The notes: generated from the letters alone by a model not told the origin. DNA of 64,000 bases from Candidatus Nomurabacteria bacterium (GCA_020632415.1 JACKFO010000002.1:119947-183946), one strand, 5' to 3'. Counted from the first letter of the stretch, positions 28,401 to 54,716 are shown. Made by a program: numbers and translations.

Positions 28401-28403
28401 TTT

Positions 28404-30880: not shown

Positions 30881-30881
30881 T

Positions 30882-35416: not shown

Positions 35417-37516
35417 ATGTCAAAATTAAGTAAATATCTGTGGTGGAGTACTGTTGTTTTTAGTTTAGCAATTCTATTTGCGCCGCTAATTATAAATGGT
35501 AATTTTTATTTTCCTTTTATTGTGCCACGAAATCTGTTTTTCCGAATGCTCGTGGAACTTTCTTTTTTTAGTTATTTAATTTTAATCATTTTAGATCAGA
35601 ATTTTCGACCAAAATTTAATAAAGCTTATTTAATTTTTTTATTTTTTATTTTAAGTTTAACGATTTCTAGTTTGCTAGCTGGAAATTTTGGCTTTTCTTT
35701 TTGGAGTAATTTTGAGAGAATGGATGGTTTGTTAAATTGGTATCATTTGGCAGCCTATGTTTTTGTGTTGTTAGGAATTTTTGGTCACGATCAAAAGAAG
35801 ATTTTTTTATTCCTCAAGATTTCTTTAATTCCAGCCTTCCTAGTAGCTTTGATTGCTGTTGGTCAAAGATTGAATTTAAGTTTTGTCCTAGAGTCTTCTG
35901 GTGGCACCAGACTTGCTTCTACTTTGGGAAATGCTGCCTATGTTGGCTCGTATATGTTTTTGCATATTATCATTGCCCTTTATTTATTTTTTAAAGAAAA
36001 AGCCAAGAAATATTGGCAGTTTATTTATGCGTTTTTGATTATTTTATTTACTTGGACTTTGATTGGTACTTCTACTCGAGGTTCATTTTTGGGTTTAATT
36101 TTATTTATTTTTTTGTTAGGACTTTTCTTTTTGTGGTTCAAAAGAAAGCAAAAAAATCTTCAGTATTGGCTAGTTTTATCTCTAGCGGCTATTTCTATTA
36201 TTTTCGTTGTTGCTCTTTTTTTACAAAAAGATAGCGCTTGGGTTAAAGGCGTTCCTTTATTTAGTAAGATAGCTAATATTTCTTTGACCGACACAACTAC
36301 TCAGTCTCGTTTAGTCATTTGGCGCAATAGCTTGAGTGGTTTTCAGGGAAAGCCAATTTTTGGTTGGGGAGAAGAAAATTTTACCCAAGTTTTTAATAAA
36401 TATTTTCCAATTGAAATATTTCACGATACTGGCTCAGAAGTTTGGTTTGATCGTCCACATAATATCTTGGTCCAACATTTGATTCAAGGCGGAATCGTGG
36501 GTTTGGGTCTATATTTGGGAATTTTTATCTACCTGATCATTTTGCTTTATCGTCGACAAAAAAAAGATCAAGATTGGCTAAGCTTTTCTTTTTGGTCAGC
36601 GTTTTTGTTAAGCTTTTTGTTTCAAGATTTATTTATTTTTGACAATGTCAATGTCAATGTAGTCTTTTATTTTATTCTGTCATTTTTGTTTAGTTTGGAT
36701 GCCAAAGTTTATTTTGCTAAATATTCTTGGAAAAAATATCAGAAAATTTTTGTTTTATTGAGTTTTTGTTTATTTTTATTAAGTCTTAATTTTTTTATTA
36801 TTCGCCCTTATTATGCTAATACTTTATTAGTTCAAACCTTGCAGGCAGTTCCGGTGATTAATAATGATCAGGACTTAGAAATCGTTTTAAAAAATTGGGA
36901 AAAATCCTTTAAACTTACTAGACAAGGCGATAAAGAAAAGGTGCAAAATTTGTATCGTTTATCTCTAACTTTTGCTCAAAATCAAAATTTAAGCGTTGAA
37001 GCAAGATCGAATTTTATTTTGGCTACTGAAAATTATTTTGAAATTTTAAAAAATAGATATCCACAAGACGTTAGGTCAAATTTATTTTTATCAAATTTTT
37101 ATCAAAGTTTATCTAGTTTCAAGCCAGAGTACATTGAAAAAAATATTAGTTTATTAAATCATTTACAAGAACTCGCTCCAAATCGACCAGATATTTTATT
37201 GAACTTAACTACAGCTTACCTGATGTCCGGAAAAATAGAAGAAGCTCAGATTTCAGCCGATCATTTGAGGGACTTAGCTCCATGGGCGAAAGCAGTTTAT
37301 TGGAATAGTTTCAAAGTAGATACTAGCCTTGGAGATTTTGAAAAAATAAAAAAAGACCTAGATAAAATTGTGGAAATTAATCAGAGTAGTTCGAAATTAA
37401 ATTTTACGGAGCAAGAGTTAGGTCAAATTAATAGCTTTTTGGCTTATGTTCAAGAAAACGATAATCAAGCGTTGGAAGATTTATTGTTAAAGTATTTGTC
37501 ATTAAAAAATGAATAA
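35417..37516 (+). CDS. Wzy_C-domain (O-antigen ligase / O-oligosaccharyltransferase / polymerase-like) membrane protein with a C-terminal TPR-like domain
   Basis: It is polytopic, with RLVIWRNSL...PIFGWGEENF...FDRPHNILVQHLIQGGIVGL (Wzy_C HNxxL..E.G motif). The C-terminal ~220 aa are soluble and helical-repeat-like. Confidence 0.75.
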   Translation: MSKLSKYLWWSTVVFSLAILFAPLIINGNFYFPFIVPRNLFFRMLVELSFFSYLILIILDQNFRPKFNKAYLIFLFFILSLTISSLLAGNFGFSFWSNFERMDGLLNWYHLAAYVFVLLGIFGHDQKKIFLFLKISLIPAFLVALIAVGQRLNLSFVLESSGGTRLASTLGNAAYVGSYMFLHIIIALYLFFKEKAKKYWQFIYAFLIILFTWTLIGTSTRGSFLGLILFIFLLGLFFLWFKRKQKNLQYWLVLSLAAISIIFVVALFLQKDSAWVKGVPLFSKIANISLTDTTTQSRLVIWRNSLSGFQGKPIFGWGEENFTQVFNKYFPIEIFHDTGSEVWFDRPHNILVQHLIQGGIVGLGLYLGIFIYLIILLYRRQKKDQDWLSFSFWSAFLLSFLFQDLFIFDNVNVNVVFYFILSFLFSLDAKVYFAKYSWKKYQKIFVLLSFCLFLLSLNFFIIRPYYANTLLVQTLQAVPVINNDQDLEIVLKNWEKSFKLTRQGDKEKVQNLYRLSLTFAQNQNLSVEARSNFILATENYFEILKNRYPQDVRSNLFLSNFYQSLSSFKPEYIEKNISLLNHLQELAPNRPDILLNLTTAYLMSGKIEEAQISADHLRDLAPWAKAVYWNSFKVDTSLGDFEKIKKDLDKIVEINQSSSKLNFTEQELGQINSFLAYVQENDNQALEDLLLKYLSLKNE

Positions 37517-39377
37517 ACTACAAAAAATTTTACAATCTCTTTTGGTTTTGATTTTATTTACACCCTTGGTTTTAGATTTGCATTTTTACCAACCTTACAT
37601 TAGTGCTAAATATTTTTACTTTATTTTATTGCTTATTTTGGCCCTGCCTTTTGTTTTTGCTTTGTTAAAAAATAAAAAAATTATTTGGCAGAGTAATTTA
37701 GTAAGGGTAGTTTTTGGGTTTTTAGCTTTTTTGCTTTCTAGCCTTTTTTTAAGCATCGATCCTTTAAAAAGTTTTTTTGGTGATTGGCAGCGTTTTGATG
37801 GTTTGCTTTATTTTCTTTTCTTTTTTATTTTCTTTTTGGTCTTAATTTTAGTTTTTGAACAGAAAAAAGATTGGCTTCATTTTTTGCGGGTTAATCAGCT
37901 CGTGGTTCTAGCGACTCTACTTTGGGCTTATGGCCAATATTTTGCTCTAGGTTTTTTTGCTGATGATCAAGCGGGAAGAGTTTTTGCTTTGATTGGTAAT
38001 GCCAATTTTTTAGCGCACTATTTGTTGTTAGCGTTATTTTTGAGTTTATTTTTGGTATATTTTGATCAAAAATTTAAAATTTATCATCTTTTATTAAGCC
38101 TTTTGATTTTTCCTGTTATTTTAATGACGCAATCAAGGGCCGCTTTTCTAAGTTTGGTCTTAGTCTTTTTGATTTTGGCGATTGTGGCAATTATTAAATT
38201 TTGGCAAAAATCCAAAAAAACTAGTTTGGGCTTGATAGTCTTATTATTTTTGTTAGCACTATTTTCGAATCAGATTTTGAGCCATCGTTTTACTAAATAT
38301 TCTTGGCAAGATACAACCATTGAGACTAGATTGGTTGCTTGGCAAGCAGGATTGATCGGCTGGCAAGACAAGCCTTTATTTGGTTGGGGTAGGAACAATT
38401 TTAATTTAGTTTTTAATAAATATTTTGATTTAAAGATTTACAAAGGCGCCGGTACTCGAATGTGGTTTGATAAGGCTCATAATCAGTACCTAGATTATTT
38501 GGTAGAGCAGGGAATTTTGGGTTTGGTATTTTATCTAATATTTTTACTAATACCTTTTAGCTATTTTCAAAAAATTAAGAAAAAACATGGTTTAGCAGCA
38601 AGCATCTTTTTATTTTCTGGCTTAGTAGCAAATATCATTTTCTTATTTTTTAATTTTGATACTTTAAATTCTTATTTATTATATTTTGTTTATTTGGCCT
38701 TGATTTATTATTTGAGTTTTGAAAAAAGCGTAGAACAAAAAGAATTAAAGCAAGATAAATATTTGTTTGTTTTTGGCCTAGTTTTATTGTTTTTTTCTTT
38801 TTGTTATATTTTATTTCCGCAAATTCAAGGAAATTTAGCCTTAAAAAAGATTTTTCTCAGTCAACAGAATAATTTGAGCCTAAAAGATTGGTCTGAACAA
38901 GCAGAGATCGTTGCTCAAAAAACTCCTGAATATCAAGAAGACTTGAGTTTTGTTTTGGCAGAAAGTTTAGAAAAATCATCTTGGGAAATTAATGATCAAA
39001 TTCAAGCTCTGCAGACTTTGAATTATTATGGCAATCAAGCTGCTCAACAACACATTTTGGATGCCAGGTTGCATTATTTAATTGCCAATACTTTTTTACG
39101 TTGGGGTGCAATTTCTTCTGATCTTGATAAATTAGAGAAAGCAAAAAGTTATTATCAAGAGATTTTACCACGACTAACTAATCAAAAACGGCCAGAATTA
39201 GTCTATAATTTAGCTAGTGCTAATTATAATTTATCCTTATTTTTAACAGAGGAATCTGAAAAAAATCAACTCAAAAAAGAGAGTCTATCTGCTTTAGAGG
39301 ATAATTTTAAACGTTTTCCAAAAATTAAAGAAGCCAAAGATAAGTTAGAATATTTTCAATATTTATTTGAACAATAA
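37509..39377 (+). CDS. second Wzy_C-domain membrane protein with a C-terminal TPR-like domain (paralog of the upstream gene)
   Basis: RLVAWQAGL...PLFGWGRNNF...FDKAHNQYLDYLVEQGILGL. It has the same architecture as the upstream gene and overlaps it by 8 nt. Confidence 0.75.
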   Translation: MNKLQKILQSLLVLILFTPLVLDLHFYQPYISAKYFYFILLLILALPFVFALLKNKKIIWQSNLVRVVFGFLAFLLSSLFLSIDPLKSFFGDWQRFDGLLYFLFFFIFFLVLILVFEQKKDWLHFLRVNQLVVLATLLWAYGQYFALGFFADDQAGRVFALIGNANFLAHYLLLALFLSLFLVYFDQKFKIYHLLLSLLIFPVILMTQSRAAFLSLVLVFLILAIVAIIKFWQKSKKTSLGLIVLLFLLALFSNQILSHRFTKYSWQDTTIETRLVAWQAGLIGWQDKPLFGWGRNNFNLVFNKYFDLKIYKGAGTRMWFDKAHNQYLDYLVEQGILGLVFYLIFLLIPFSYFQKIKKKHGLAASIFLFSGLVANIIFLFFNFDTLNSYLLYFVYLALIYYLSFEKSVEQKELKQDKYLFVFGLVLLFFSFCYILFPQIQGNLALKKIFLSQQNNLSLKDWSEQAEIVAQKTPEYQEDLSFVLAESLEKSSWEINDQIQALQTLNYYGNQAAQQHILDARLHYLIANTFLRWGAISSDLDKLEKAKSYYQEILPRLTNQKRPELVYNLASANYNLSLFLTEESEKNQLKKESLSALEDNFKRFPKIKEAKDKLEYFQYLFEQ

Positions 39378-39412
39378 CATCTTTGTTTCACCAGCTAAAA
39401 TATGTTATAATA

Positions 39413-39481: not shown

Positions 39482-40621
39482 ATGCGTCTTTCTGAGACCA
39501 AAATATATTTTAAATTTATCGGTTGGTTTTTGCTAGTCGCTATTTTGCCTTTATTTTTATTATTTTTTGCCTTATTTAGACTTCAGCCAGATAGCTTTAT
39601 TTTTCAAACTACTTTTTTAAATAATGTTCTATTTAGCATTTTCTCCACTTCTGCTCTAGTTTTGACTTTAGCTCTGATTGCTGCTAGGCATTTTTCTTAT
39701 TTGATTACTAAGCCGGTTAAAGTTTCTATTGATGATTTAGAAAAAGTAATTGGCACTTTAAAAAAATCGATTGACAATTTAGCCGAAAGTAATAAGCATA
39801 ACAAGCAAATTGCCTCTTTGCTATTTTCTAGCACTAAAGATCAACAAAAAGGTTTAAATACCGGGGATAAAGCAGTGGGAGAAATTGTTCAATCTTTATC
39901 TTTGATTAATCAAAATATTAACCGAACCCAAAAAAATACTTCGCAAATCAAGGGTTTGGCCAATGAAGGAGAGTCCAAAGCTCAGCTGGCTTTGAGTAGT
40001 TTAGTGGCCATTAAACATCTTTCTACTGAAAACCAAAAATTAAATCAAGCTTTAGCGAGTTACGCGGGGCAAGTTTCCTCAATTGCTGAAAGAGTTGATC
40101 AAATGGCCGAGGCGGTGCGTTATTTAAGCCTCAATGCCTCAATAGAGGCAGCGAAATCAGAGGTTTCTCTAGAATTCGAAGCTTTAGTTCATCAAGTTAG
40201 GCAGATTAATTCCATCAGCCAAGAGGCTGCTTTAGGCATTAAAAAATTTGCTACTAGCATGCAGCAGCAAATTAAAAATTCAGAAAATGCTTCCCAGTAT
40301 GAATTAAAAGAAGCAGATAAAAATATTGGCATTGTTGGCCAAACTATCCAATTTTTGGCTAAAATTACGAAAGATAGTACTCAAATTAGTAAAAATATCG
40401 ACATTATTTGTTCTGAATCAGGAGAAACTAAACAAGCAGCTGATCAAGTTACCGAAGTTATTAAAAACCTGGGAAACAATAGTAAGAATTTAGTTAAAGA
40501 AGCTCAAAATGTTAATCACTTAGTTGAAAAACAAAGTAACAATTTAAGAGTTTTGCGTCGCTCTTTTAACATTTTGAGCGACACAGTGGCTAATTTAGCC
40601 GAAATAGTAGAAAAAAATTAG
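39482..40621 (+). CDS. methyl-accepting chemotaxis protein (PilJ-like; two N-terminal TM helices, minimal sensor loop)
   Basis: The MCP signalling domain is ...VRYLSLNASIEAAKSEVSLEFEALVHQVRQINSISQEAA... Confidence 0.8.
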   Translation: MRLSETKIYFKFIGWFLLVAILPLFLLFFALFRLQPDSFIFQTTFLNNVLFSIFSTSALVLTLALIAARHFSYLITKPVKVSIDDLEKVIGTLKKSIDNLAESNKHNKQIASLLFSSTKDQQKGLNTGDKAVGEIVQSLSLINQNINRTQKNTSQIKGLANEGESKAQLALSSLVAIKHLSTENQKLNQALASYAGQVSSIAERVDQMAEAVRYLSLNASIEAAKSEVSLEFEALVHQVRQINSISQEAALGIKKFATSMQQQIKNSENASQYELKEADKNIGIVGQTIQFLAKITKDSTQISKNIDIICSESGETKQAADQVTEVIKNLGNNSKNLVKEAQNVNHLVEKQSNNLRVLRRSFNILSDTVANLAEIVEKN

Positions 40622-41038
40622 ATGAATAAAACTAAACAAAAATTTATTTTGTTTGATCTAGCAGAGAATAAATATGCTCTAGAAATTTCTGATACTTATC
40701 GTATTTTTGAAGTACAAAGTTTAAGTCCTGTTCCTGGTTCTGATCAGAGAATTGCTGGCCTAAGTTATTTTGACGGTCATTTAGTGACAATTTTAGCCAC
40801 AGATAAAATTTTGAGTTTAAAAAATCAAAATCAAGAAATAAACCAGGCTTTACTAGTCAAAAATGATAATCATTATTATGCATATTTAGTTGATCAAGTA
40901 GCGGATGTAGTTGATGCTTTTTTGCAAAAAAGCAAGACTAAGCTTAATGGTTTAAATAATTTTATTTTAATCAATAAACAAAAAATTTTTGTCCTGGAAA
41001 CGGATTTTTTATTAAAAGAAATATTCGATAATGAATAG
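40622..41038 (+). CDS. CheW-like coupling protein (PilI-like)
   Basis: It is a 138-aa single CheW domain, FILFDLAENKYALEISDTYRIFEV. Confidence 0.75.
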   Translation: MNKTKQKFILFDLAENKYALEISDTYRIFEVQSLSPVPGSDQRIAGLSYFDGHLVTILATDKILSLKNQNQEINQALLVKNDNHYYAYLVDQVADVVDAFLQKSKTKLNGLNNFILINKQKIFVLETDFLLKEIFDNE

Positions 41039-42596
41039 CGAAAAGTATAAAGATTTTTACTTAGAAACAAGCCGTGATCAATTAAGAAAATTGTCTGATC
41101 TTTTTTTGGCTTGGGAGAAGAAAAGTACTGATCCTTATCTTTTGGAAGACATTTTAAGTCTTTTGCACTCAATGAAAGGTGCGGCGGTGACAATGGATTA
41201 TCAAAACACCGGCAAAGCTTTGCATCTTGCCGAAGATGTTTTTTATGCAATTTTGCATAAAGACTTGGAACTTAGTTCACTGATCATTGAAACTTTGTTT
41301 AGATTTTTAGAAAGTTTAGAAAATAATTTTGATTCTTTAGCAAAAAAAGGAAAAGAGTCTTCTTTTCAAGCTGTTTTTAATAATTTGCAAAAAATTGTTA
41401 AAAATAAAGCAAGTAAAAAACAAAGCAAAAAGAAAATTTCTTCAGAAACGATAATTAATTTAAATCACTCCCGTTCTTTTTTTAGAACACCTTTAGAGTT
41501 GGTGATTCCAACTTATCGCTTGGATAAAATTCAGAGCATCGTTGATAATCTATCAATTGCCAAAATAAACATCAATAGCAATATCAAAAATAGCGCTAGC
41601 GATAATTTGTTAAAATCTTGTGCTAATATCGATAAGATTGTTTCAGATTTGCGTCGAGAAATTGAAGAAATTAGACTTTTGCCGGTAGCACAGATATTTT
41701 CACCTCTACCTCGTTTAGTTAGACAGCTTGCTAAAGACGAGGAGAAAAAAGTCGATTTGATCATTGAGGATAATAATTTGTCTTTAGATAAATCTATTTT
41801 GGATGATTTGATGGATATTGTAATTCAGCTTTTGCGTAACGCTGTTGTTCATGGCATCGATAAAAAACAAGACAATGGTCAGATTATCGTTAGAGTTGAA
41901 TTAGTAGATGGTCGAGTGAGATTGATGGTTGCAGATAACGGTCACGGTATTGATTGGCAGGAAGTTGTAAAATTATCCGTTAGAAAGAAAATTATTAGCC
42001 AAGCGGAGGCTAAAAAATTAAACATTTTGGAAATTAAACAGCTTTTGTTTAGTAATCGTTTTTCCTCGCAAAAAGTAGTTACTTTAAATAGTGGTCGTGG
42101 CGTCGGTTTAAGTTTGGTTAAAAAAAGAGTTGATGATTTGAATGGAAATATCAGCTTGGAAAGTTCCAAGGCACATGGCGCACGTTTTATAATAGACTTG
42201 CCACTTTATACCTCTGTTTTTAGAGCTCTTGTTTTTCAACTAGCTGATTTTTATTTAGCAATTCCTTTGGTTAATATTCAAAAGATTATTCGTTTGCCAA
42301 AAATAGAAACTTTTTCTAATCAAAAAAGTTTTGTTTACAAGAAGATAAATTATCGACTTTTGTCTCTGAAAAAGATAATCGGAGCAAATCTTTCTTTGTC
42401 GACGCAGAATTTGTTATTGATCAAATTTAATGATCAGGAAAAATTGTTGGCTGTTCCGCAAAATTTAAAAGAAGAGGAAGTGGTGATGAAAAGGCAGCCA
42501 AAAATTTTGAAAGACAATCCGATTGTTTCTTCAGCCGCAGTAGCCAGTGATGGTCGGGTGATCTTGATTTTAAACATGCACAGTTTAATGCAATAA
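41031..42596 (+). CDS. CheA/ChpA-like histidine kinase (Hpt, dimerisation, HATPase_c and CheW domains)
   Basis: The Hpt is LHSMKGAAVTMDYQ. The dimerisation/kinase core is LPVAQIFSPLPRLVRQLAKDEEKKVDLIIEDNN...LLRNAVVHGI...DNGHGID...GRGVGLSLVKKRVDDLNGNISLES. It ends in a CheW-like domain. Confidence 0.85.
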   Translation: MNSEKYKDFYLETSRDQLRKLSDLFLAWEKKSTDPYLLEDILSLLHSMKGAAVTMDYQNTGKALHLAEDVFYAILHKDLELSSLIIETLFRFLESLENNFDSLAKKGKESSFQAVFNNLQKIVKNKASKKQSKKKISSETIINLNHSRSFFRTPLELVIPTYRLDKIQSIVDNLSIAKININSNIKNSASDNLLKSCANIDKIVSDLRREIEEIRLLPVAQIFSPLPRLVRQLAKDEEKKVDLIIEDNNLSLDKSILDDLMDIVIQLLRNAVVHGIDKKQDNGQIIVRVELVDGRVRLMVADNGHGIDWQEVVKLSVRKKIISQAEAKKLNILEIKQLLFSNRFSSQKVVTLNSGRGVGLSLVKKRVDDLNGNISLESSKAHGARFIIDLPLYTSVFRALVFQLADFYLAIPLVNIQKIIRLPKIETFSNQKSFVYKKINYRLLSLKKIIGANLSLSTQNLLLIKFNDQEKLLAVPQNLKEEEVVMKRQPKILKDNPIVSSAAVASDGRVILILNMHSLMQ

Positions 42597-42597
42597 A

Positions 42598-43260
42598 ATG
42601 AGTGAACAGAAAGTAAAAATTTTATTTGTTGATGATGATAGTTTTTTGAGAAAGGTTTATGATTCAGAATTAACAGAAAATAATTATGATGTAGCTCTGG
42701 CTGTTGATGGTCAAGATGGTTTAGATAAGGCGCGTGATGTTGATCCTGATTTGATCATTTTGGATATGGTAATGCCCAAAAAAAATGGTTTTGAAGTTTT
42801 GACAGAATTGCAATCTGATCCAGAAACAGCTCATATTCCAGTGATTATTTTATCAAATTTGGGTCAGGCAGCCGATCGGCAAAAGGGTCTGGATCTTGGC
42901 GCGGTTGATTATTTGGTAAAAGATAGCACGACTCTAGGAGTAATTATGTCTAGAATTGATAATATTTTACATTCACATACTAGCAGTAAAGAAGTAAGGA
43001 AAAAGAGTCATGAGATGGCGATCAAAGAAGCCAGTAAAATTCCTGAACCAGAAAAAATAGACGAAGCAAAAACTTCTGCTAATATTTTGACTAATGTTGC
43101 AAAACAGTTAGTCAAAAAATCAGAAAGAAAATCTACGGATGATAGACAGATAGAAAGTAGTAGCGGTGGCGCTGGTTTCCAATTTTGTCCAGAATGTGGT
43201 TCAAAAATAAAGATAAATTATAAATTTTGTCCAAAGTGTGGGTATAAATTAGAAAAATAA
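42598..43260 (+). CDS. CheY-like response regulator fused to a C-terminal zinc ribbon
   Basis: The REC domain is ILFVDDDSFLRK...DLIILDMVMPKKNGFEVL...IPVIILSN. The C-terminus is FQFCPECGSKIKINYKFCPKCGYKL. Confidence 0.8.
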   Translation: MSEQKVKILFVDDDSFLRKVYDSELTENNYDVALAVDGQDGLDKARDVDPDLIILDMVMPKKNGFEVLTELQSDPETAHIPVIILSNLGQAADRQKGLDLGAVDYLVKDSTTLGVIMSRIDNILHSHTSSKEVRKKSHEMAIKEASKIPEPEKIDEAKTSANILTNVAKQLVKKSERKSTDDRQIESSSGGAGFQFCPECGSKIKINYKFCPKCGYKLEK

Positions 43261-43264: not shown

Positions 43265-44950
43265 ATGGCGATAATTTCTGACAACAAAATTCACAATATC
43301 ATTAGTAAAGTAGGTTTGGTACCACTTGATGTTTTGGATACAAGTTTAAAAACTGCTCACGAGAAAAAAGAAGATTTTGTTACTTTTTTGATTAAGCAAA
43401 ATTTGATTAAATCAGAGGAAGTCGGTCAATTAATTGCCAACAATCTTCATGTTCGTTTTGTTAATTTAATCAAAGAGCAAATTAAGCTAGAAATTTTAAA
43501 AATTATTCCAGAGATTGTTGCTCGTAAACAAAAAATTATTGCTTTTCGTCATGATGAAGAGGGTTTAAAAGTAGCAATGAACAATCCTTTTGATTACAAC
43601 ATGGTCAAAATGTTAGAAAAAAAGGTGGGAGACAAAGTAATCCCTTATTATGCTACTGATTACGATATTAAAAATGCTTTTGGTTTGTATCGTAAGGCTG
43701 TTCAGCAAGAATATGCAACACAAATTCAGCAGCACGCGGTACGTGCTCAAGGTTCGCAAGTTGAAGATGTTTCGGTGGTTAGTTTGGTTGATGATTTGTT
43801 TAACTACGCTTACACTAATCATGCTTCGGATATTCATATTGAGCCAGCAGAAGAAGAAATTAAAATTAGATTTAGAATTGATGGTATTTTGCACGATGTT
43901 TTGACTCTACCAAAAAATATTTTGAGTTTGATCGTTGCTCGTTTAAAAATTTTAGCCAAGTTAAGAACTGATGAAACTCGCGCTGCTCAAGACGGAAAAA
44001 TAAACACCAAAGTAGAAGGTGAAAAAGTAGATATCAGAGTATCAATTGTTCCGATCACTCAAGGTGAAAAAGTCGTTATGCGTTTATTGTCTTCCAAAGG
44101 TCAGCAGTTTAGCTTGGAAGATTTAGGGATGAATAGTCGTGATTTAGGTTTGGTCTCAAGAGGAATTAAAAAACCTTATGGCATGATCTTAGTCACTGGT
44201 CCAACTGGTTCTGGTAAGACAACGACCCTTTATGCTTTGATTAAAATTATTAATAGCCGAGATGTTAATATTTGTACAATTGAAGATCCAGTAGAATATG
44301 ATTTAGAAGGAATTAATCAAATTCAAGTTAATCCAAAAACCAATTTGACTTTTGCCGAAGGTTTACGTTCTCTGCTAAGACAAGATCCAGATGTGATGAT
44401 GGTCGGAGAAATTCGAGATGAAGAGACAGCGAGTATTGCTGTTAATTCTGCAATGACTGGTCATTTGGTTTTATCTACTTTGCATACCAATGATTCAGCT
44501 ACTGCTTTACCACGTTTGTTGGACATGAAGATCGAGCCGTTTTTAGCAGCGTCAACAGTGAATGTGATCATTGCTCAGCGTTTGGTTCGACATATTTGTT
44601 TGAAATGTATTGTTAGTTATACTTTAACTGATCAAGAAATTGAAGATTTGAAAAAAATGGTGGATATCGATAAATTTTTGGATGTCGAAAAATTAAAAGA
44701 TATTCGTTTGTATCATGGTAAGGGCTGTGATAAATGTAACAACACTGGCTATACTGGTCGAATGGGCATTTTTGAAGTTTTGGAAGTGGAGGAGACGATT
44801 AGACAGTTGATTGCTGAGCGTGCTGATTCTGATCGAATTAAAGAGGCAGCTCAAAAATTAGGAATGACCACGATGCTTGAAGACGGTTTTGAAAAAGTGG
44901 TATCTGGTCAAACAACTTTAGATGAAATATTAAGAGTAACTCGTCAATAA
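43265..44950 (+). CDS. pilB: type IV pilus assembly ATPase PilB/GspE
   Basis: It has a T2SSE_N-like N-terminus and a Walker A GPTGSGKTTTLYA. The tetracysteine motif is CLKC...CDKC. Confidence 0.9.
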   Translation: MAIISDNKIHNIISKVGLVPLDVLDTSLKTAHEKKEDFVTFLIKQNLIKSEEVGQLIANNLHVRFVNLIKEQIKLEILKIIPEIVARKQKIIAFRHDEEGLKVAMNNPFDYNMVKMLEKKVGDKVIPYYATDYDIKNAFGLYRKAVQQEYATQIQQHAVRAQGSQVEDVSVVSLVDDLFNYAYTNHASDIHIEPAEEEIKIRFRIDGILHDVLTLPKNILSLIVARLKILAKLRTDETRAAQDGKINTKVEGEKVDIRVSIVPITQGEKVVMRLLSSKGQQFSLEDLGMNSRDLGLVSRGIKKPYGMILVTGPTGSGKTTTLYALIKIINSRDVNICTIEDPVEYDLEGINQIQVNPKTNLTFAEGLRSLLRQDPDVMMVGEIRDEETASIAVNSAMTGHLVLSTLHTNDSATALPRLLDMKIEPFLAASTVNVIIAQRLVRHICLKCIVSYTLTDQEIEDLKKMVDIDKFLDVEKLKDIRLYHGKGCDKCNNTGYTGRMGIFEVLEVEETIRQLIAERADSDRIKEAAQKLGMTTMLEDGFEKVVSGQTTLDEILRVTRQ

Positions 44951-44954: not shown

Positions 44955-46160
44955 ATGTGGTTTTCTTATCAGGTAGTTAATAAAAAAGGAAAGATTATCT
45001 CTGGCAACATTGAAGCAAGAGCAGAGGATCTTGCTCGAACAAAATTAGTCGAAAAAAAAGGTACGGTTTTGTCTTTGAATCAAATTAGTAAGCCAAATAA
45101 AGAGGGCTTGCAAATTGTGATTGGTCGAGTGAAATTGATGGACAAGATGATCTTTGCTAAGCATCTGGCAGTGATGATTCGTTCTGGCATGCCTCTTGAT
45201 GAGTCTTTGGACACTTTGATGCAGCAGAGTAGTCCGCCAATGGCTAAGAGAATTAAGCGTATTTTATTTGACGTCAAACAAGGAAATTCCTTGTCTAATG
45301 CCCTAAGAAAACAGAAGCGTGTTTTTGACACAATGTTTATTAACATGGTTGCTGCCGGAGAAGCGAGTGGACAATTAGAACAAAATTTAAATATCGTTGC
45401 TACTCAACAAGAAAAAAATTATACCCTACGAAGTAAAATCAAAGCAGCAATGCTTTATCCAACGGTAATTTTTTTGGCAATTATTGGTTTATTAGCTGTA
45501 ATTGCAATTTTTGTCTTACCAAAGTTAATCGGCTTTTTTAGTACGCTTAATGCTAATTTGCCATTATCTACTAGGATTTTAATTGCTGGTTCAGATTTTT
45601 TGGTTAATAATTGGCCTTTGGTTTTCGGGGGAATAATTCTTTTGTTTATTGCAATTAAAGTAATGACTCGTTTCGCAAAAACTAGGTTTATTTTGCATTT
45701 AATTTTATTACGCATTCCTATTTTCGGTAAGATTAGTAAAAATATGAATTTAGCGATTTTTTGTCGCTCTTTATCCTCGCTATTAAGTAGTGGAATTACC
45801 ATTGATCAAGCCTTGAATATTGTCTCAGATACAGTGACCAATGATAGTTATAAACATAAAATTAATGCCGTTTATCATCAAGTATTAAAAGGTAGCGCTT
45901 TATCAGAAGTTTTACTACAAGACAAAAGTTTCCCAATTTTGGTTTCTCGAATGAGTAAAGTTGGCGAGCGATCGGGAAATTTAGCAGAAACTTTGGATTA
46001 TTTGGCAGACTTTTATGAGACAGAAGTTGATAATACTACCAAAAACTTATCTACCATGTTAGAGCCAGCCTTATTGGTCTTTATTGGTTTGGCTGTTGGT
46101 TTTGTAGCTATTTCAATTATTAATCCAATTTATGAATTAACTAGTAAAGTTGGAGCTTAG
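44955..46160 (+). CDS. pilC: type IV pilus platform protein PilC/GspF
   Basis: It is 401 aa with 3 TM helices and duplicated GspF domains, ...MAAGEASGQLEQNL.../...SRMSKVGERSGNLAETL... Confidence 0.9.
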   Translation: MWFSYQVVNKKGKIISGNIEARAEDLARTKLVEKKGTVLSLNQISKPNKEGLQIVIGRVKLMDKMIFAKHLAVMIRSGMPLDESLDTLMQQSSPPMAKRIKRILFDVKQGNSLSNALRKQKRVFDTMFINMVAAGEASGQLEQNLNIVATQQEKNYTLRSKIKAAMLYPTVIFLAIIGLLAVIAIFVLPKLIGFFSTLNANLPLSTRILIAGSDFLVNNWPLVFGGIILLFIAIKVMTRFAKTRFILHLILLRIPIFGKISKNMNLAIFCRSLSSLLSSGITIDQALNIVSDTVTNDSYKHKINAVYHQVLKGSALSEVLLQDKSFPILVSRMSKVGERSGNLAETLDYLADFYETEVDNTTKNLSTMLEPALLVFIGLAVGFVAISIINPIYELTSKVGA

Positions 46161-46676
46161 ATGAGATTTTTTTTAAAAAATAATAAAGGCTTTTCTTTGT
46201 TAGAGATGATTTTGGTCGTTGCAATTTTTGTGATTATTTTATCTTCAGTCGTTGGTCTACTAGGAGACAAAACTGTGCGAGAAGATTTGTCAGCAAAAGC
46301 TCAAGAGGTGGTAAATATTATTTCTCGCGCTCATGATTATGCCGTTAATTCTTATTATGGAGATAATTGGGGGGTAAAAATTTTGGATGCTAGTACAGAT
46401 TGTTATACCGATGGTTCAAGTGGTGATTGTTTAATTATTTTCAAAGGAAAGTCTTATGATTCGCGTAGTTCTGATTACGATGAAAAAGTTTTATTAGATA
46501 CTTCGGTATTTATCGATAGTGATCAAACTAATGAATTTTATTTTCAAAGGATTTCCGGTTGGCTTTCAACTACTACTGGCGCCTTAGCTGAACAAGCGAT
46601 TATTTTACAAACCAATTTAGGAAGTCAAAAGATAGTTACCACCACTCCTACGGGCTTGGTTTATTATGGAGATTAA
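46161..46676 (+). CDS. prepilin-type N-terminal cleavage/methylation-domain protein (minor pilin)
   Basis: MRFFLKNNKG|FSLLEMILVVAIFVIIL is a class III signal peptide with Glu at +5. Confidence 0.8.
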   Translation: MRFFLKNNKGFSLLEMILVVAIFVIILSSVVGLLGDKTVREDLSAKAQEVVNIISRAHDYAVNSYYGDNWGVKILDASTDCYTDGSSGDCLIIFKGKSYDSRSSDYDEKVLLDTSVFIDSDQTNEFYFQRISGWLSTTTGALAEQAIILQTNLGSQKIVTTTPTGLVYYGD

Positions 46677-48729
46677 TAATATGAAAAAATTAAAACAAAA
46701 ATTTCAAAATAATTTTGGCTTTAGTTTAGTAGAGCTTGTAGTTGCCGTGGGTGTTTTTGCAATTTTAGCTTCTGGTGTGTTTTATGTTGTCACCAATTCG
46801 TATACAAATTTTTATGGCACTGGCGATAAACAGGCGATTGCAGAATTTGCTCAAGAGGGCTTAGAGGCTGTACGTTCAATTAGAGAAAATTCTTGGCAAT
46901 ATATCGAGGATAATGTTGGTTCAGACTTAGGTGTCTCGCAGACGGCTGGTTTATGGTCTTTTAGTGGTAGCTCTGATGTGAGCGGCGGGCTAACGCGTGT
47001 GATTACTATTGCTGATGTTAGTCGAGATACAAGTGGTAATATTGTTAGTTCTGGAGGAAGTGATGATCCTTTAACCAAAAAAATAACAATCACTGTTTCA
47101 GGTACTGGAATATCTGATTATGTACTTACCAGTTATTTAACTTCTTGGGCTAATCGCTCCTGGGAACAGACAGATTGGTCTGGTGGAGTTGGTACACATT
47201 ATTGGTCCTATGAAGATCAGGCTTATTCTTCTTCTAGTATTGACGGACTTTCAACACCAGGGGAGCTAAAGTTGGCTTATGTTCCAGGGGTAACTACTTG
47301 GGGATGGGGTGATCTAACTGATTTTGCTTCCAGCTCAATGACAGGGAATAATTACGCTGCCTTGATGGATGATGATCATGATTATTATTATAATTGCGGT
47401 AGTGATAGTGGTGTGAGGCGTTATGACATTTCTAATATCAAGACATCGGGGTTTGGTACTCAAACATATTTGGCTACTGGGCATAATTGTTATGCTTCAG
47501 GTCTGAATTCAGTCAACAAGCATATTTATGCTGCTGGCGGAGCAAGTGTTATAACGAGTATTGAAATTGGCACTTTTGCTGTTTTAGACACCTATACTCC
47601 AGCTACTTATTTGGGAAAACCTTATGCCATAGCTATTAATGAAGCGGGAGATCATATGTATATGGGCGGAGCTTCTAGTAAATTGTTCAGTTTAGATATT
47701 GCTTCGAATGGTACTCTGACCTGCACCAACTGCACTTTGTGGTGTGATACAAAAATTGACCCAAAATGTACTCCAAATATGGACGATCCGCAAAATTTTG
47801 GCGCTTCCGTGATCAATGGTCTTTGGCTTGATGACACGAATGAGAAGTTATACATGGTTACAGATGATGCGAATCGAGCCATTACTAGACTGGATGTTTC
47901 TGATCCAAATAATATTACTGAAGACTATTCTTTGTATTATGCTTATGACATGGTTGATATAAAATATATTGGTTTAAATTCTACTGGTCATCCTCGTTTT
48001 TTGGTTGGTTTAGATTATTTATCTTCTGGTAATGAAGTGATGTTGATCGATGATAATCCAGATTCTTCAACTTTTACAATTGTCGCCGGAGTTGATTTGA
48101 GCGCTTATGCTGGTAAGGCAATTTATGTTAGAGATTTGGAGTATACCAATAACAATGAGGCTTTTGTGGCTGCGGTTGATGCTGATGGCATACCTTATGT
48201 GCATTTGTATGCTCTTGATGATATTGCAGCTACAGATGGTGTTAGTCCTTCTATTATTTATAATGCCACTGGACCTTATGGTTATTATACGCTTAATTAT
48301 CATCCAATAGCTTATAGTGATAAGTATGGGGGAATTTTTGCTGGCTGGACTTATTATGATAGCTCGACTAGAAGAGTTACTTTTTTTGAGCAAGAAGAAG
48401 TTCCCGGAGTTGGTTCTTATGCTTCTAGCGGTAACCTAGTTTCTTCGATTTTGGACATTGGCTCAAGTGATCAGGAATTACATAGCTTAACAGTTTCTCA
48501 AAACATTCCTTCTGGCTGTGGGATTGAGATTACTCTAGAAGCTGATGATAACTCAAGTTTTTCTAGTCCAACCCAACAAGTGATTTCTGGCACAGCTAGT
48601 TCTTATGCCACGGAAATAAATGTGGCTCTTAGTAATCAAAGGTGGTTAAGATATCAAGTAGATATGACGCCTTGTAATAGCGGCACTGAAACTCCGAGTT
48701 TATACTCTTTGCATTTGAATTATCGTTAA
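46666..48729 (+). CDS. large (687 aa) prepilin-like protein with beta-propeller-like and Cys-rich domains (candidate pilus tip adhesin)
   Basis: ...NNFG|FSLVELVVAVGVFAILASG is the prepilin motif. Downstream are YVTN/LVIVD-like repeats, ...LYMVTDDANRAITRLDV..., and the Cys cluster CTNCTLWCDTKIDPKC. An alternative ATG is at 46681. Confidence 0.7.
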   Translation: MEINNMKKLKQKFQNNFGFSLVELVVAVGVFAILASGVFYVVTNSYTNFYGTGDKQAIAEFAQEGLEAVRSIRENSWQYIEDNVGSDLGVSQTAGLWSFSGSSDVSGGLTRVITIADVSRDTSGNIVSSGGSDDPLTKKITITVSGTGISDYVLTSYLTSWANRSWEQTDWSGGVGTHYWSYEDQAYSSSSIDGLSTPGELKLAYVPGVTTWGWGDLTDFASSSMTGNNYAALMDDDHDYYYNCGSDSGVRRYDISNIKTSGFGTQTYLATGHNCYASGLNSVNKHIYAAGGASVITSIEIGTFAVLDTYTPATYLGKPYAIAINEAGDHMYMGGASSKLFSLDIASNGTLTCTNCTLWCDTKIDPKCTPNMDDPQNFGASVINGLWLDDTNEKLYMVTDDANRAITRLDVSDPNNITEDYSLYYAYDMVDIKYIGLNSTGHPRFLVGLDYLSSGNEVMLIDDNPDSSTFTIVAGVDLSAYAGKAIYVRDLEYTNNNEAFVAAVDADGIPYVHLYALDDIAATDGVSPSIIYNATGPYGYYTLNYHPIAYSDKYGGIFAGWTYYDSSTRRVTFFEQEEVPGVGSYASSGNLVSSILDIGSSDQELHSLTVSQNIPSGCGIEITLEADDNSSFSSPTQQVISGTASSYATEINVALSNQRWLRYQVDMTPCNSGTETPSLYSLHLNYR

Positions 48730-48732
48730 AGA

Positions 48733-50019: not shown

Positions 50020-50022
50020 AAT

Positions 50023-53663: not shown

Positions 53664-54149
53664 ATGAAAAAACAAGGTTTTACTTTGATAGAGTTGATCA
53701 TTGTGATTGCAGTGATTGCTCTACTTGCTGCGGCGGTGTTTGTGGCCGTTGATCCAGCAAAACGTATCGGTCAAGCACGTGATGCTCAGCGTTGGTCTGA
53801 TGTGACCGCGGTGGCTGACGCTATTATGAAATATGTTGTTGATAACAATGGTACTTTTGCAACAACTACGCCATTGCCAACTGTTGATGATTATTATTTA
53901 ATAGCTGGTTATCAAGTGACTGGTACCACGGGAACTACCTGTCAAAACGCTACTATTGATGGTGCTGGAGCCGCCATACGTTTAGATTCTTTAGTGCCAA
54001 CTTATTTACCGACTATGCCTACTGATCCTTCTTTTACTTCCGGCGCTAGCACTCAGTATTACTTTATGAGAAATTCTGCTGGTCGGATAAAGATTGGCGC
54101 TTGTGAGGAAAGTGATTACGCTACAGCTTCCATTTACGTCCAACGATAA
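53664..54149 (+). CDS. type IVa major pilin
   Basis: MKKQG|FTLIELIIVIAVIALLAAAVFVAV. A C-terminal Cys pair sits in the ...CQNATIDG...IGACEESDYATASIYVQR region. Confidence 0.9.
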   Translation: MKKQGFTLIELIIVIAVIALLAAAVFVAVDPAKRIGQARDAQRWSDVTAVADAIMKYVVDNNGTFATTTPLPTVDDYYLIAGYQVTGTTGTTCQNATIDGAGAAIRLDSLVPTYLPTMPTDPSFTSGASTQYYFMRNSAGRIKIGACEESDYATASIYVQR

Positions 54150-54169
54150 AAATTATCTTCTTTAATTTT

Positions 54170-54664: not shown

Positions 54665-54675
54665 ATTTAAATTAA

Positions 54676-54716
54676 AAACAGCCTTCCGGGTTTAAATCCC
54701 AGAAGGCTGTTTTTTG
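54676..54716 (+). terminator. rho-independent terminator after the pilin genes
   Basis: ACAGCCTTC cgggtttaaatccca GAAGGCTGT TTTTTG. Confidence 0.85.

What the first reader, a model, noticed from the sequence alone, without database searches (positions are those of the whole stretch)
39482..43260. Chp-like chemosensory module hard-wired to the type IV pilus locus
An MCP with only a minimal extracytoplasmic loop, a CheW, a CheA carrying an Hpt and a C-terminal CheW domain, and a CheY-like receiver are encoded immediately upstream of pilB-pilC, and appear transcriptionally coupled to them. No CheB or CheR adaptation enzymes and no flagellar genes are in the window. This is the layout of a Pil-Chp-type surface-sensing or twitching-control pathway. 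In a reduced CPR-like genome such a dedicated pilus chemosensory circuit is notable and may govern host attachment.
Basis: partly seen in the sequence, partly recalled or inferred. Interest (0 to 1): 0.65.

Follow-up and report, generated by a model that had tools for sequence, protein, structure and literature searches.

The report
Minimal chemosensory module wired to pilus operon
An ultrasmall (CPR/Patescibacteria) bacterium carries a stripped-down four-gene chemotaxis-type signalling module fused to the front of its type IV pilus operon; the module is a rare, apparently undescribed CheA lineage, not a relative of the classic Pseudomonas Pil-Chp system, and may control how these bacteria deploy the pili they use to attach to hosts.

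Summary
Window 39482-43260 encodes an MCP-like receptor, CheW, CheA (P1-P3-P4-P5, no P2) and a CheY-like receiver with a C-terminal zinc ribbon. Gaps of -8 to +4 nt join them to pilB, pilC, pseudopilins, pilM and pilins. The window has no CheB, CheR, flagellar or PilT gene.

The genome is a Candidatus Nomurabacteria MAG (842-kb contig).

The same gene order recurs in all 24 distinct lineages recovered (PilB follows the receiver in 22/22). About 60 non-CPR cheA loci have no pilus genes nearby.

The CheA catalytic residues are invariant. The family is discrete and rare: 6 of about 22,000 CheA-like representatives among 1.84 billion proteins.

The "Pil-Chp type" reading is only partly right:
- The kinase core never groups with genuine ChpA (0/200 bootstraps; clade monophyly 98%).
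- It has one Hpt, no fused receiver and one CheY.
- The receptor has no sensor domain, HAMP or conserved methylation sites.
- The receiver resembles stand-alone receivers found next to pilB in other CPR-type loci.

Best model: a Che kinase module independently plugged into a pre-existing receiver-PilB partnership. This is a new variant of a known kind. No prior description was found.

The parts
39403..39411 (+). Possible extended -10 promoter element (TGtTATAAT) in the 104-nt gap upstream of the receptor gene
   Evidence: Read directly from the sequence. The consensus scan as a whole was at chance level, so this is weak.
39482..40621 (+). MCP-like receptor (379 aa). Conserved N-terminal juxtamembrane motif, TM1, ~13-residue outside loop, TM2, Pro78 linker, then one long coiled-coil hairpin with its tip at residues 224-229. 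No sensor domain, no HAMP.
   Evidence: Pfam MCPsignal 40.8 bits. Alignment to Thermotoga MCP structures. AF2 model with pLDDT 81: helices 83-223 and 230-377. Family alignment and conservation profile.
40622..41038 (+). CheW coupling protein (138 aa)
   Evidence: Pfam CheW, E=8e-13. Present in 22 lineages, with a typical 8-nt overlap with cheA.
41031..42596 (+). CheA histidine kinase (521 aa). P1/Hpt with His46, a Lys-rich linker and no P2, then P3, P4 and P5.
   Evidence: Pfam and NCBIfam. PDB CheA match over residues 162-518. Invariant H46, N270, H274, G275, D302, G304, G306, F340 and G355-G359 in 25 clade members.
42598..43260 (+). CheY-like receiver (acidic pocket D12/D13, Asp56, Ser86, Tyr105, Lys108) with a ~70-aa linker and a C-terminal CxxC...CxxC zinc ribbon (220 aa)
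   Evidence: Pfam Response_reg 83 bits and Zn_Ribbon_1. Alignment and tree. Distribution of the tail.
43265..44950 (+). PilB pilus-extension ATPase with an N-terminal MshEN/T2SSE_N-type domain (561 aa)
   Evidence: Pfam T2SSE 443 bits plus MshEN; NCBIfam PilB/GspE.
44955..46160 (+). PilC platform protein
   Evidence: Pfam T2SSF, E=4.5e-63.
46161..51792 (+). Four pseudopilin/adhesin genes (46161-46676, 46666-48729, 48733-50019, 50023-51792). Three have prepilin N-methylation motifs and two have Laminin_G_3 lectin-like domains.
   Evidence: Pfam N_methyl and Laminin_G_3. Conserved downstream of pilC in clade loci.
51822..53567 (+). PilM-like assembly protein (581 aa, extended)
   Evidence: Pfam PilM_2, E=9e-25.
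53664..54664 (+). Two pilin genes (53664-54149, 54170-54664)
   Evidence: Pfam N_methyl at residues 2-26 of each.
54674..54714 (.). 17-bp-stem hairpin flanked by A and T runs: likely bidirectional terminator closing the 13-gene unit
   Evidence: Terminator scan.
35417..39377 (+). Two Wzy_C (O-antigen-ligase-like) membrane proteins. They are the conserved upstream neighbours of the module in most clade loci and are possibly linked to the pilus (glycosylation). They are separated from the module by 104 nt.
   Evidence: Pfam Wzy_C. Synteny. The functional link is not tested.

Best explanation
This is a minimal, pilus-dedicated chemosensory phosphorelay from its own CheA lineage.

Proposed pathway:
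1. A membrane receptor is reduced to two TM helices plus a coiled-coil hairpin of about 42-44 heptads. With CheW, it controls a P2-less CheA.
2. CheA autophosphorylates on His46 and passes the phosphoryl group to Asp56 of the co-encoded CheY-like receiver.
3. The phosphorylated receiver acts by protein-protein contact on the pilus motor encoded immediately downstream. The most likely target is the N-terminal domain of the extension ATPase PilB. This switches pilus extension on or off.
4. The locus carries no CheR, CheB or phosphatase, and the receptor has no conserved methylation motif. It would therefore work as a non-adapting switch (for example contact or envelope-state triggered) rather than a gradient-measuring device.

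Evolutionary model: the receptor-CheW-CheA trio was grafted onto an older receiver-PilB partnership that is widespread in CPR-type pilus loci.

Shown computationally: gene content, catalytic residues, synteny, phylogenetic distinctness and receptor architecture.

Inferred: phosphotransfer, the receiver's target and the nature of the input signal.
For: Core components and catalytic motifs are present and invariant in 25 clade CheAs.

Gene order MCP-CheW-CheA-REC-PilB-PilC holds in 24 distinct lineages. REC follows CheA in 23/23, PilB follows REC in 22/22 and PilC follows PilB in 18/18. Median gaps are -8 to +5 nt, and this holds down to 28% CheA identity.

None of about 60 non-CPR cheA loci has pilB/pilC nearby. 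They carry CheB, CheR, CheC, CheD or CheX instead.

The family is discrete: 614-722 bits for 6 representatives, then 408 bits or less, among 22,424 CheA-like representatives.

The receiver and PilB are the slowest-evolving parts (median identity 66% and 72%, against 32-41% for MCP, CheW and CheA).

The receiver scores 91-116 bits against stand-alone receivers adjacent to pilB in Che-less CPR-type loci. It scores 56-71 bits against PilG/PilH and 38-57 bits against true CheYs. It shares their non-canonical K108 region.

Among Che-less relatives, adjacent receivers occur with 17/40 long PilBs and 0/15 PilBs lacking the N-domain. Within the clade the PilB N-domain is nearly as conserved as the ATPase core.

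In L025 the receptor and CheW are lost and CheA is truncated, but REC-PilB persists.

Precedent: phosphorylated PixG binds PilB1 in Synechocystis (PMC11181946). PATAN receivers bind PilB1 and PilC (bioRxiv 10.1101/2021.06.11.447907).
Against: No experiment or expression data exists; co-transcription is inferred from spacing only.

Deep nodes of the receiver tree are weak (38% and 24% bootstrap), so the shared receiver family rests on scores and motifs.

The PilB-length correlation is not corrected for relatedness.

The receiver could equally target PilC or PilM.

The zinc-ribbon tail in the window's subclade hints at a different or additional output.

The input is unknown, because the receptor has no sensor domain.

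No PilT is in the locus, so motility as opposed to adhesion or DNA uptake is undetermined.

CheR and CheB elsewhere in the genome cannot be excluded.
Confidence: 0.68

Rival explanations
1. It is a bona fide member of the Pil-Chp (Tfp-class) chemosensory family, simply reduced in a small genome.
For: It has the same general logic: a Che-type pathway linked to type IV pili, with no flagella in sight. Like ChpA, the CheA lacks P2.
Against: The kinase core is 22-27% identical to two genuine ChpAs and never groups with them (0/200 bootstraps), while the CPR clade is supported at 98%. It has a single Hpt and no fused receiver, whereas 94% of Tfp-class multi-Hpt CheAs carry one (PMC10782961). It has one CheY rather than PilG plus PilH. 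The receiver scores lower against PilG/PilH than against CPR pilB-adjacent receivers. The receptor scores 40.8 bits on MCPsignal against 150 bits for PilJ.
Confidence: 0.05
2. The module is an 'alternative cellular function' pathway. Its receiver, through the zinc ribbon, regulates something other than pilus motor activity, for example transcription or the adjacent surface-glycan/Wzy genes. Adjacency to pilB would reflect co-regulation rather than direct control.
For: A zinc-ribbon tail is present in the window's subclade and in the two deepest branches, L024 and L175. Wzy_C and glycosyltransferase genes lie immediately upstream in most loci.
Against: The largest subclade has a bare 135-166-aa receiver with no output domain, so output must be by protein contact. 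Junctions to pilB are 1-56 nt or overlapping, whereas a gap of 100 nt or more separates the module from upstream genes, and upstream content varies between loci. The receiver co-conserves with PilB.
Confidence: 0.12
3. The module does control the pilus, but the receiver's target is PilC, PilM or machine localisation rather than the PilB N-terminal domain.
For: Synechocystis PATAN receivers bind both PilB1 and the N-terminal domain of PilC (bioRxiv 10.1101/2021.06.11.447907). In some Che-less loci the receiver sits between pilB and a pilT-like gene.
Against: The receiver gene abuts pilB in 22/22 lineages. Adjacent receivers occur only with PilBs that have the N-domain. PilC and PilM are less conserved than the receiver and PilB.
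Confidence: 0.2
4. The module is a decaying, non-functional remnant of an acquired chemotaxis cluster.
For: One lineage (L025) has lost the receptor and CheW and has a CheA reduced to P1+P4. The receptor tip motif is degenerate, with GxGRG lost and a one-residue deletion.
Against: Open reading frames are intact in 23 other lineages. The phospho-His, N, G1, F and G2 boxes are invariant, and receiver active-site residues are conserved despite 60% sequence divergence.
Confidence: 0.04

Closest known systems
Pil-Chp system of Pseudomonas aeruginosa and relatives (Tfp class: PilG, PilH, PilI, PilJ, (PilK), ChpA, (ChpB), ChpC)
   Same: A Che-type receptor/CheW/CheA/CheY pathway whose output is the type IV pilus rather than a flagellum. 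CheA lacks P2. CheY-like receivers act on the extension machinery.
   Different: It is a separate CheA lineage (0% bootstrap grouping, 22-27% core identity).

ChpA is more than 2000 aa with many Hpt domains and a fused receiver, whereas this CheA is 521 aa with one Hpt. Pil-Chp has two CheYs and two CheWs against one of each here.

PilJ has a large periplasmic domain, whereas here there is a 13-residue loop and no HAMP.

Pil-Chp usually has CheR/CheB, and none is at this locus. Pil-Chp is not embedded in the pilB-pilC operon.
Cyanobacterial Tax/Pix chemotaxis-like systems (Synechocystis PixJ-PixL-PixG/PixH)
   Same: A Che-like kinase phosphorylates a receiver, which then binds the pilus extension ATPase PilB1 directly (PMC11181946). 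This is the closest precedent for the proposed output step.
   Different: PixL is a hybrid CheA-REC. The receiver that binds PilB1 carries a PATAN domain. The receptor is a photoreceptor. Two antagonistic receivers are used. The system is not in the pilB operon. Its phylogenetic relation to the CPR clade was not tested here.
F1-class chemotaxis systems (Thermotoga, Bacillus, Archaea), including archaeal control of the archaellum, itself a type IV filament machine
   Same: These are the best-scoring characterised relatives of the kinase core. The NCBIfam archaeal CheA model scores 234 bits against 125 bits for the E. coli type. Thermotoga CheA scores 152 bits against 124 bits for E. coli CheA. 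The receptor C-arm matches the length of a 44H Thermotoga receptor. It is a Che pathway driving a type-IV-filament ATPase machine.
   Different: The CPR clade does not group with F1 references (0% bootstrap). There is no P2 and no CheC, CheD, CheB or CheR at the locus. There is no CheF adaptor. The output is a bacterial PilB/PilC pilus.
Stand-alone receivers adjacent to pilB in other CPR-type pilus loci (uncharacterised)
   Same: These are the most similar receivers (91-116 bits). They share the L(S/T)NL(G/E) and YL(V/I)K-x motifs, with no Pro after the conserved Lys, and they sit in the same position next to pilB.
   Different: Those loci lack the receptor, CheW and CheA. Their kinase is unknown, and they often have 2-3 receiver copies and a PilT-like gene. 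The deep tree nodes linking them are weakly supported.

Membership tests
Core chemosensory system (any class) | Receptor with an MCP signalling hairpin | tested here: met
   Pfam MCPsignal 40.8 bits against a cut-off of 34.6. Conserved NxSIEAxK...F tip. AF2 antiparallel hairpin with pLDDT above 87. The tip is atypical: GxGRG is lost and there is a one-residue deletion.
Core chemosensory system (any class) | CheW plus a CheA with Hpt phospho-His, dimerisation, HATPase (N, G1, F, G2 boxes) and P5 domains | tested here: met
   H46, N270, D302xGxG306, F340 and G355-G359 are invariant in 25 sequences. The Pfam H-kinase_dim model does not hit, but residues 162-215 align to P3 of the Thermotoga CheA structure.
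Core chemosensory system (any class) | Cognate CheY-like receiver with the phospho-accepting Asp and the T/S and K switch residues | tested here: met
   D12/D13, D56, S86, Y105 and K108 are conserved across the clade. The region after K108 is non-canonical (no Pro, one extra residue).
Core chemosensory system (any class) | Methylation-based adaptation (CheR/CheB and methylation sites on the receptor) | tested here: not met
   No CheR or CheB in the 64-kb window or within 8-10 kb of the module in the clade loci. The methylation consensus recovers 4/4 Tar sites but no conserved site in 17 CPR receptors. The rest of the genome could not be searched.
Tfp class (Pil-Chp) | CheA kinase core groups phylogenetically with ChpA/PilL | tested here: not met
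   NJ tree of 362 columns and 59 taxa, with two genuine ChpAs identified by synteny. CPR+Tfp is recovered in 0/200 bootstraps; CPR monophyly is 98% and the Tfp pair 100%. Caveats: NJ only, gammaproteobacterial Tfp references only, and no MiST class HMMs.
Tfp class (Pil-Chp) | Multi-Hpt CheA with a C-terminal receiver domain (predominant class architecture per PMC10782961) | tested here: not met
   One Hpt and no receiver in 521 aa. ChpA references are 2039 and 2157 aa with FimL/Hpt repeats and a receiver.
Tfp class (Pil-Chp) | Two CheY-like regulators (PilG, PilH) and a PilJ-type receptor with a periplasmic domain | tested here: not met
   A single receiver, scoring 56-71 bits against PilG/PilH and 91-116 bits against CPR pilB-adjacent receivers. 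The receptor loop is about 13 residues.
Tfp class (Pil-Chp) | Output is type IV pilus function | not testable with these tools
   Only genomic linkage is available: 22/22 lineages have pilB directly after the receiver gene.
F1 class | CheA core groups with Bacillus/Thermotoga-type CheA, and CheC/CheD accessory genes are present | tested here: not met
   CPR+F1 grouping is 0/200. No CheC or CheD at the locus. F1-type CheAs are nevertheless the best-scoring characterised relatives.
MCP heptad class (44H as in F1; 40H as in PilJ, from memory of Alexander & Zhulin 2007 and Ortega et al. 2017) | Number of heptads in the cytoplasmic hairpin | tested here: inconclusive
   In the AF2 model the arms are about 144 and 153 residues, which gives roughly 42-44 heptads. 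The C-arm aligns without gaps to a Thermotoga 44H receptor, and the N-arm is about 11 residues shorter. Class HMMs were not available.
Type IVa-like pilus machinery | PilB, PilC, PilM and prepilins with an N-methylation motif | tested here: met
Type IVa-like pilus machinery | Retraction ATPase PilT | tested here: not met
   No PilT-like gene in the window or in clade loci through the pilin genes, whereas many Che-less relatives have pilB-(REC)-pilT-pilC. The rest of the genome was not searched.

The most novel reading that the evidence does not exclude
This is a previously unclassified chemosensory class, apparently centred on CPR/Patescibacteria (one deep-branching contig, L175, is of unknown taxon). 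It is the smallest complete Che pathway known: four proteins, a receptor without sensor or HAMP, and no adaptation. It would have been recruited to type IV pili independently of the proteobacterial/cyanobacterial Tfp class, by capturing a lineage-specific CheY-like receiver that docks on the N-terminal domain of PilB. In episymbiotic ultrasmall bacteria it could be the device that converts host contact or envelope cues into pilus deployment.
Probability: 0.45. Interest if true: 0.75.

Novelty: new variant of a known kind. Interest (0 to 1): 0.65.

Why it matters
Cultivated CPR bacteria depend on type IV pili to find, bind and move on their bacterial hosts (PMC9894109, PMC11623550). How they sense when to deploy pili is unknown, and CPR are usually described as lacking chemotaxis genes (for example PMC11809585). 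A sensory kinase pathway embedded in the pilus operon gives a concrete, testable candidate for that control.

For signal-transduction research it adds a discrete CheA lineage outside the 19 recognised classes as sampled here. It shows that Che modules were wired to type IV pili more than once. It also offers an unusually minimal receptor-kinase unit, together with natural variants, for dissecting array signalling. One variant has a 255-aa sensor domain and another has only a P1+P4 kinase.

It further points to an uncharacterised family of pilB-adjacent receivers that may be a general pilus regulator in CPR-type genomes.

Tried and rejected
- **tRNA and Rfam scans of the window:** nothing found.
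- **Promoter/terminator consensus scan:** counts were at shuffle level, so operon boundaries rest on spacing plus one strong hairpin.
- **Tfp-class reference from the plasmid/chromid collection:** this failed. The Nostoc plasmid cluster is a CheB/CheR/CheX-type system without pilus genes, and the P. aeruginosa hit is a flagellar-type CheA next to CheZ. It was solved by recalling PilG (99% identical to the real protein) and walking to ChpA.
- **Heptad class:** my first estimate of 44H, from TM2-to-tip distances, was revised to about 42-44H after the AF2 model showed a Pro-containing linker, so class assignment is left open.
- **Deep receiver phylogeny:** bootstrap is too weak (38% and 24%) to claim orthology with the pilB-adjacent receivers, so that claim is downgraded to scores and motifs.
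- **Nearest small P2-less CheAs outside the clade (P0078, P0080, P0120):** these are ordinary clusters with CheC, CheD, CheB, CheR or CheX, and are not pilus-linked.
- **Extracytoplasmic domain of the L175 receptor:** no Pfam match.
- **Genome-wide search for cheB, cheR, pilT and flagellar genes:** not possible. Only the 64-kb window and stretches of up to 10 kb on either side of the module in related loci are accessible.
- **Literature:** ten full-text searches found no description of Che systems in CPR. The large CheA architecture survey holds no Patescibacteria entries in its text or held supplements.

Full report
**1. What is in the window**

Window 39482-43260 holds four same-strand ORFs.
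- The first (379 aa) passes the Pfam MCPsignal threshold only narrowly (40.8 bits against 34.6).
- The second is a CheW.
- The third (521 aa) has Hpt, HATPase_c and a C-terminal CheW/P5 domain.
- The fourth (220 aa) is a receiver followed by a zinc ribbon.

The CheA P3-P4-P5 core aligns over residues 162-518 to Thermotoga CheA structures (E=4e-43). No P2 domain is detected, and residues ~105-160 are a Lys-rich linker.

Downstream lie pilB, pilC, four pseudopilin/adhesin genes (two with Laminin_G_3 domains), a PilM-like gene and two pilins. The thirteen genes are separated by -11 to +96 nt and end at a 17-bp-stem hairpin at 54674-54714.

The rest of the window holds a ribosomal-protein/secY operon, an ECF sigma factor, a glycosyltransferase/methyltransferase cluster, two Wzy_C proteins, a MacAB-like ABC system and hrcA-grpE-dnaK. 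It contains no CheB, CheR, CheC/D/X/Z, flagellar or PilT gene.

The CheA is identical to NCBI MCB9802542.1, annotated there as "CheW", from a Candidatus Nomurabacteria bacterium on an 842,326-bp contig.

**2. The arrangement is a conserved, discrete and rare system**

A word-indexed search found about 38 clusters (at 90% identity) of 509-524-aa CheAs. These are labelled Nomurabacteria, Parcubacteria or Patescibacteria where named. After them, scores drop sharply to canonical P2-containing CheAs.

An exhaustive HMMER search with the clade profile against 1.84 billion representatives gave 22,424 CheA-like proteins at E<=1e-30. Only six representatives (513-523 aa, 614-722 bits) belong to the clade, and the next single-domain hits score 408 bits or less.

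Among the 185,579 GTDB species representatives scanned, the clade appears in about 20 MAGs. They are named Parcubacteria, Komeilibacteria or Patescibacteria, and several TPA bins are labelled Gammaproteobacteria, probably wrongly.

After de-duplication at 90% CheA identity there are 24 lineages.
- The receiver gene follows cheA in 23/23 cases where sequence extends.
- pilB follows the receiver in 22/22.
- pilC follows pilB in 18/18.
- Median junctions are -4, -8, +2, +5 and +4 nt.

This holds for the divergent L024 (28% CheA identity) and L175 (a different, 51% GC contig). In contrast, none of about 60 non-CPR cheA loci has pilus genes nearby. They are ACF-type clusters (CheR-TPR/CheA-REC/CheB) or clusters carrying CheB, CheR, CheC, CheD or CheX.

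**3. The proteins look functional**

In 25 clade CheAs the phospho-accepting His46 (HxxKG), the N box (N270, H274, G275), G1 (D302xG304xG306), the F box (F340) and G2 (G355-R-G-x-G359) are invariant, despite only 37-65% overall identity.

The receiver keeps D12/D13, Asp56, Ser86, Tyr105 and Lys108.

The receptor family conserves a recognisable but atypical tip. It reads NxSIEAxK..SEEF..LVxQIRELN against the canonical [20 protein letters not shown], so the GxGRG motif is lost and one residue is deleted.

An AF2 model built on nine homologues (mean pLDDT 81, above 87 along the coiled coil) shows:
- TM1 (residues 3-33);
- a short outside loop;
- TM2 (39-76);
- a six-residue linker around invariant Pro78;
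- a single antiparallel hairpin (helix 83-223, turn 224-229, helix 230-377).

There is no sensor domain and no HAMP, and the length is roughly 42-44 heptads.

Receptor conservation is highest in the N-terminal juxtamembrane motif (ETKIYLKFIxWF), in residues 181-195 and at the tip. It is lowest in the loop.

A methylation-site consensus that recovers all four Tar sites finds no conserved site in 17 CPR receptors. This is consistent with the absence of CheR/CheB at the locus.

**4. It is not a Pil-Chp (Tfp-class) system**

I obtained genuine Pil-Chp clusters by searching with PilG and reading downstream. The Entomomonas and Thiopseudomonas loci contain pilG, pilH, pilI, pilJ, chpA (2039 and 2157 aa, with FimL/Hpt repeats, kinase, CheW and REC domains) and chpC.

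I built a neighbour-joining tree of the P3-P5 core (362 columns, 59 taxa). References were labelled by organism or synteny: Tfp; E. coli F7; P. aeruginosa CheA encoded beside cheZ and a flagellar motor gene (taken as class F6 from memory); Bacillus F1; and seven ACF-type.
- CPR clade monophyly: 98% of 200 bootstraps.
- Tfp pair: 100%.
- F1 trio: 98%.
- ACF: 93%.
- CPR+Tfp and CPR+F1: never recovered. The sister group of the CPR clade is unstable.

Core identity of the window CheA is 22-27% to ChpA, 27-30% to F1, 30% to the Pseudomonas flagellar CheA, 24% to F7 and 23-26% to ACF-type.

Architecture also differs from the Tfp norm, which is multi-Hpt plus a fused receiver (PMC10782961). The system is therefore a functional analogue of Pil-Chp from a separate lineage. 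The best-scoring characterised relatives are F1-type kinases, but membership of F1 is not supported either.

Caveats: only NJ trees were possible, Tfp references are gammaproteobacterial only, and MiST class HMMs were not available.

**5. The receiver points to how the module is wired**

Across 16 clade loci, median identity to the window proteins is:
- MCP 41%;
- CheW 32%;
- CheA 41%;
- receiver 66%;
- PilB 72%;
- PilC 55%;
- PilM 40%.

The output end is therefore far more constrained than the sensing end.

I examined 80 metagenomic loci encoding PilB relatives. Only the two closest (79-83% PilB identity) carry the Che trio. Many Che-less loci have one to three stand-alone receivers of ~120-140 aa directly upstream of pilB, or between pilB and a PilT-like gene.

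These are the window receiver's best matches outside the clade (91-116 bits). PilH scores 62-71, PilG 56-60, CheYs of ordinary che clusters 50-57 and E. coli CheY 38. They share its non-canonical motifs: L(S/T)NL(G/E), and YL(V/I)K followed by a non-Pro residue and one extra residue.

Bootstrap support is 100% for monophyly of the Che-linked receivers but only 38% and 24% for the deeper groupings. The relationship is therefore suggestive, not proven.

Among Che-less relatives, an adjacent receiver occurs with 17/40 PilBs of at least 540 aa. It occurs with 0/15 PilBs lacking the N-terminal ~150 residues. Fisher p=0.002, uncorrected for relatedness.

Within the Che clade the PilB N-domain is 61-81% identical, nearly as conserved as the ATPase core (69-84%). 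Outside the clade it falls to 13-44%, and it is higher where a receiver is adjacent.

In L025 the receptor and CheW genes are gone and CheA is cut down to P1+P4, yet REC-Zn-ribbon-PilB remains.

Together these observations favour a model in which a receptor-CheW-CheA trio was grafted onto an older receiver-PilB partnership. The phosphorylated receiver would act on PilB, probably on its N-terminal domain. A direct precedent exists: phosphorylated PixG binds PilB1 in Synechocystis (PMC11181946), and PATAN receivers bind PilB1 and PilC (bioRxiv 10.1101/2021.06.11.447907).

**6. Open points**

*Input.* The input is unknown. The loop-only receptor argues against classical ligand binding. In the deep-branching L175 lineage, however, the homologous receptor carries a ~255-aa extracytoplasmic domain (no Pfam match) exactly where the loop is. 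Sensor loss in the reduced lineages is therefore plausible. The invariant N-terminal juxtamembrane motif suggests a protein or membrane-borne cue; this is inference only.

*Zinc ribbon.* The tail (FCPxCG...NYKFCPxCGYxL) is present in the window's subclade and in both deep branches (L024, L175) but absent from the largest subclade. That pattern suggests it is ancestral and was lost once. Its role is unknown, and it keeps alive the rival idea of a non-pilus output.

*Retraction.* No PilT is encoded in these operons. The pilus resembles the PilT-less, host-association T4P-2 of Saccharibacteria more than the twitching pilus (PMC11623550). "Twitching control" is therefore not established.

*Untestable here.* Co-transcription, phosphotransfer and genome-wide absence of CheR/CheB could not be tested.

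**7. Novelty and verdict**

Ten full-text searches found no description of chemosensory systems in CPR/Patescibacteria. The Saccharibacteria pilus studies mention none. The 2023 survey of 13,673 CheAs contains no Patescibacteria entries in its text or held supplements.

Chemosensory control of type IV pili is a known kind of system. This is a new variant: a separate, rare CheA lineage with a minimal four-protein architecture embedded in the pilus operon of ultrasmall bacteria.

Interest is 0.65. The system is real, conserved and apparently undescribed, and it is relevant to how episymbionts control their pili. However, the mechanism is only inferred, and the general principle is not new.

Noticed in passing
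window 35417-39377 (and 22628-32720 upstream): Two Wzy_C (O-antigen-ligase-like) membrane proteins with long C-terminal extensions sit directly upstream of the Che-pilus unit in most clade loci, preceded by a large glycosyltransferase/methyltransferase cluster. Pilin O-oligosaccharyltransferases such as PglL and TfpO belong to the Wzy_C family (from memory), so these may glycosylate the pilins.
   Followed up: partly
L025:6362-7297 (MAG contig CAINYB010000002.1): A natural variant in which the receptor and CheW genes are absent and CheA is an intact 311-aa ORF with only P1 (Hpt, His retained) and P4 (G1 and G2 retained). P3 and P5 are deleted. It is still followed by REC-Zn-ribbon, PilB and PilC. 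It is either decay in progress or a receptor-independent mini-kinase.
   Followed up: partly
L175:5700-7604 (Logan contig SRR22388331_264390, GC 51%): In a deep-branching relative of the module, the receptor is 634 aa, with a ~255-aa extracytoplasmic domain (no Pfam match) between TM1 and TM2. That is exactly where the window's receptor has a 13-residue loop. The order CheW, CheA, REC-Zn-ribbon, PilB is retained.
   Followed up: partly
L093, L094, L098-L102, L104, L106, L120, L122, L134, L148, L152, L160, L161, L165: Many CPR-type pilus loci without any Che genes carry one to three stand-alone ~120-140-aa receivers next to pilB. These occur only with PilBs that have the N-terminal domain. This is an uncharacterised, apparently pilus-dedicated receiver family whose kinase is unknown.
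   Followed up: partly
NCBI MCB9802542.1; loci L005, L007, L012, L014-L016: Annotation problems. The window's CheA is deposited as 'chemotaxis protein CheW'. Several TPA 'binchicken' MAGs that carry this CPR-type locus are titled 'uncultured Gammaproteobacteria bacterium'.
   Followed up: no
window 16528-22553: An ECF sigma factor (16528-17082) and a DUF5667 protein (17095-18474) are followed by a 1254-aa ORF (18789-22553) with no Pfam match.
   Followed up: no
P0254: A 4858-aa protein in the representative library matches the HATPase region of the CheA profile in 33 separate stretches (508 bits summed). It is a highly repetitive kinase-domain protein or an assembly artefact.
   Followed up: no
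L001:7606-8268 (also L002, L005): In one lineage a 220-aa class-I methyltransferase (Methyltransf_11, not CheR by Pfam) is inserted between the second Wzy_C gene and the receptor gene.
   Followed up: no
window 46161-51792 and clade loci: The pseudopilin genes downstream of pilC vary greatly in size between lineages (about 170 to more than 1200 aa) and carry Laminin_G_3 or DUF2341 lectin-like domains. This is consistent with fast-evolving adhesive tip proteins.
   Followed up: no
L026, L027, L030, L036, L074 (Ekhidna and Roseivirgaceae, Bacteroidota): These non-flagellated-type Bacteroidota carry a conserved cluster with two CheA-like kinases (about 570 and 870 aa), CheB, CheR, CheC and two CheYs. 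It is not pilus-linked within the 10 kb examined.
   Followed up: no
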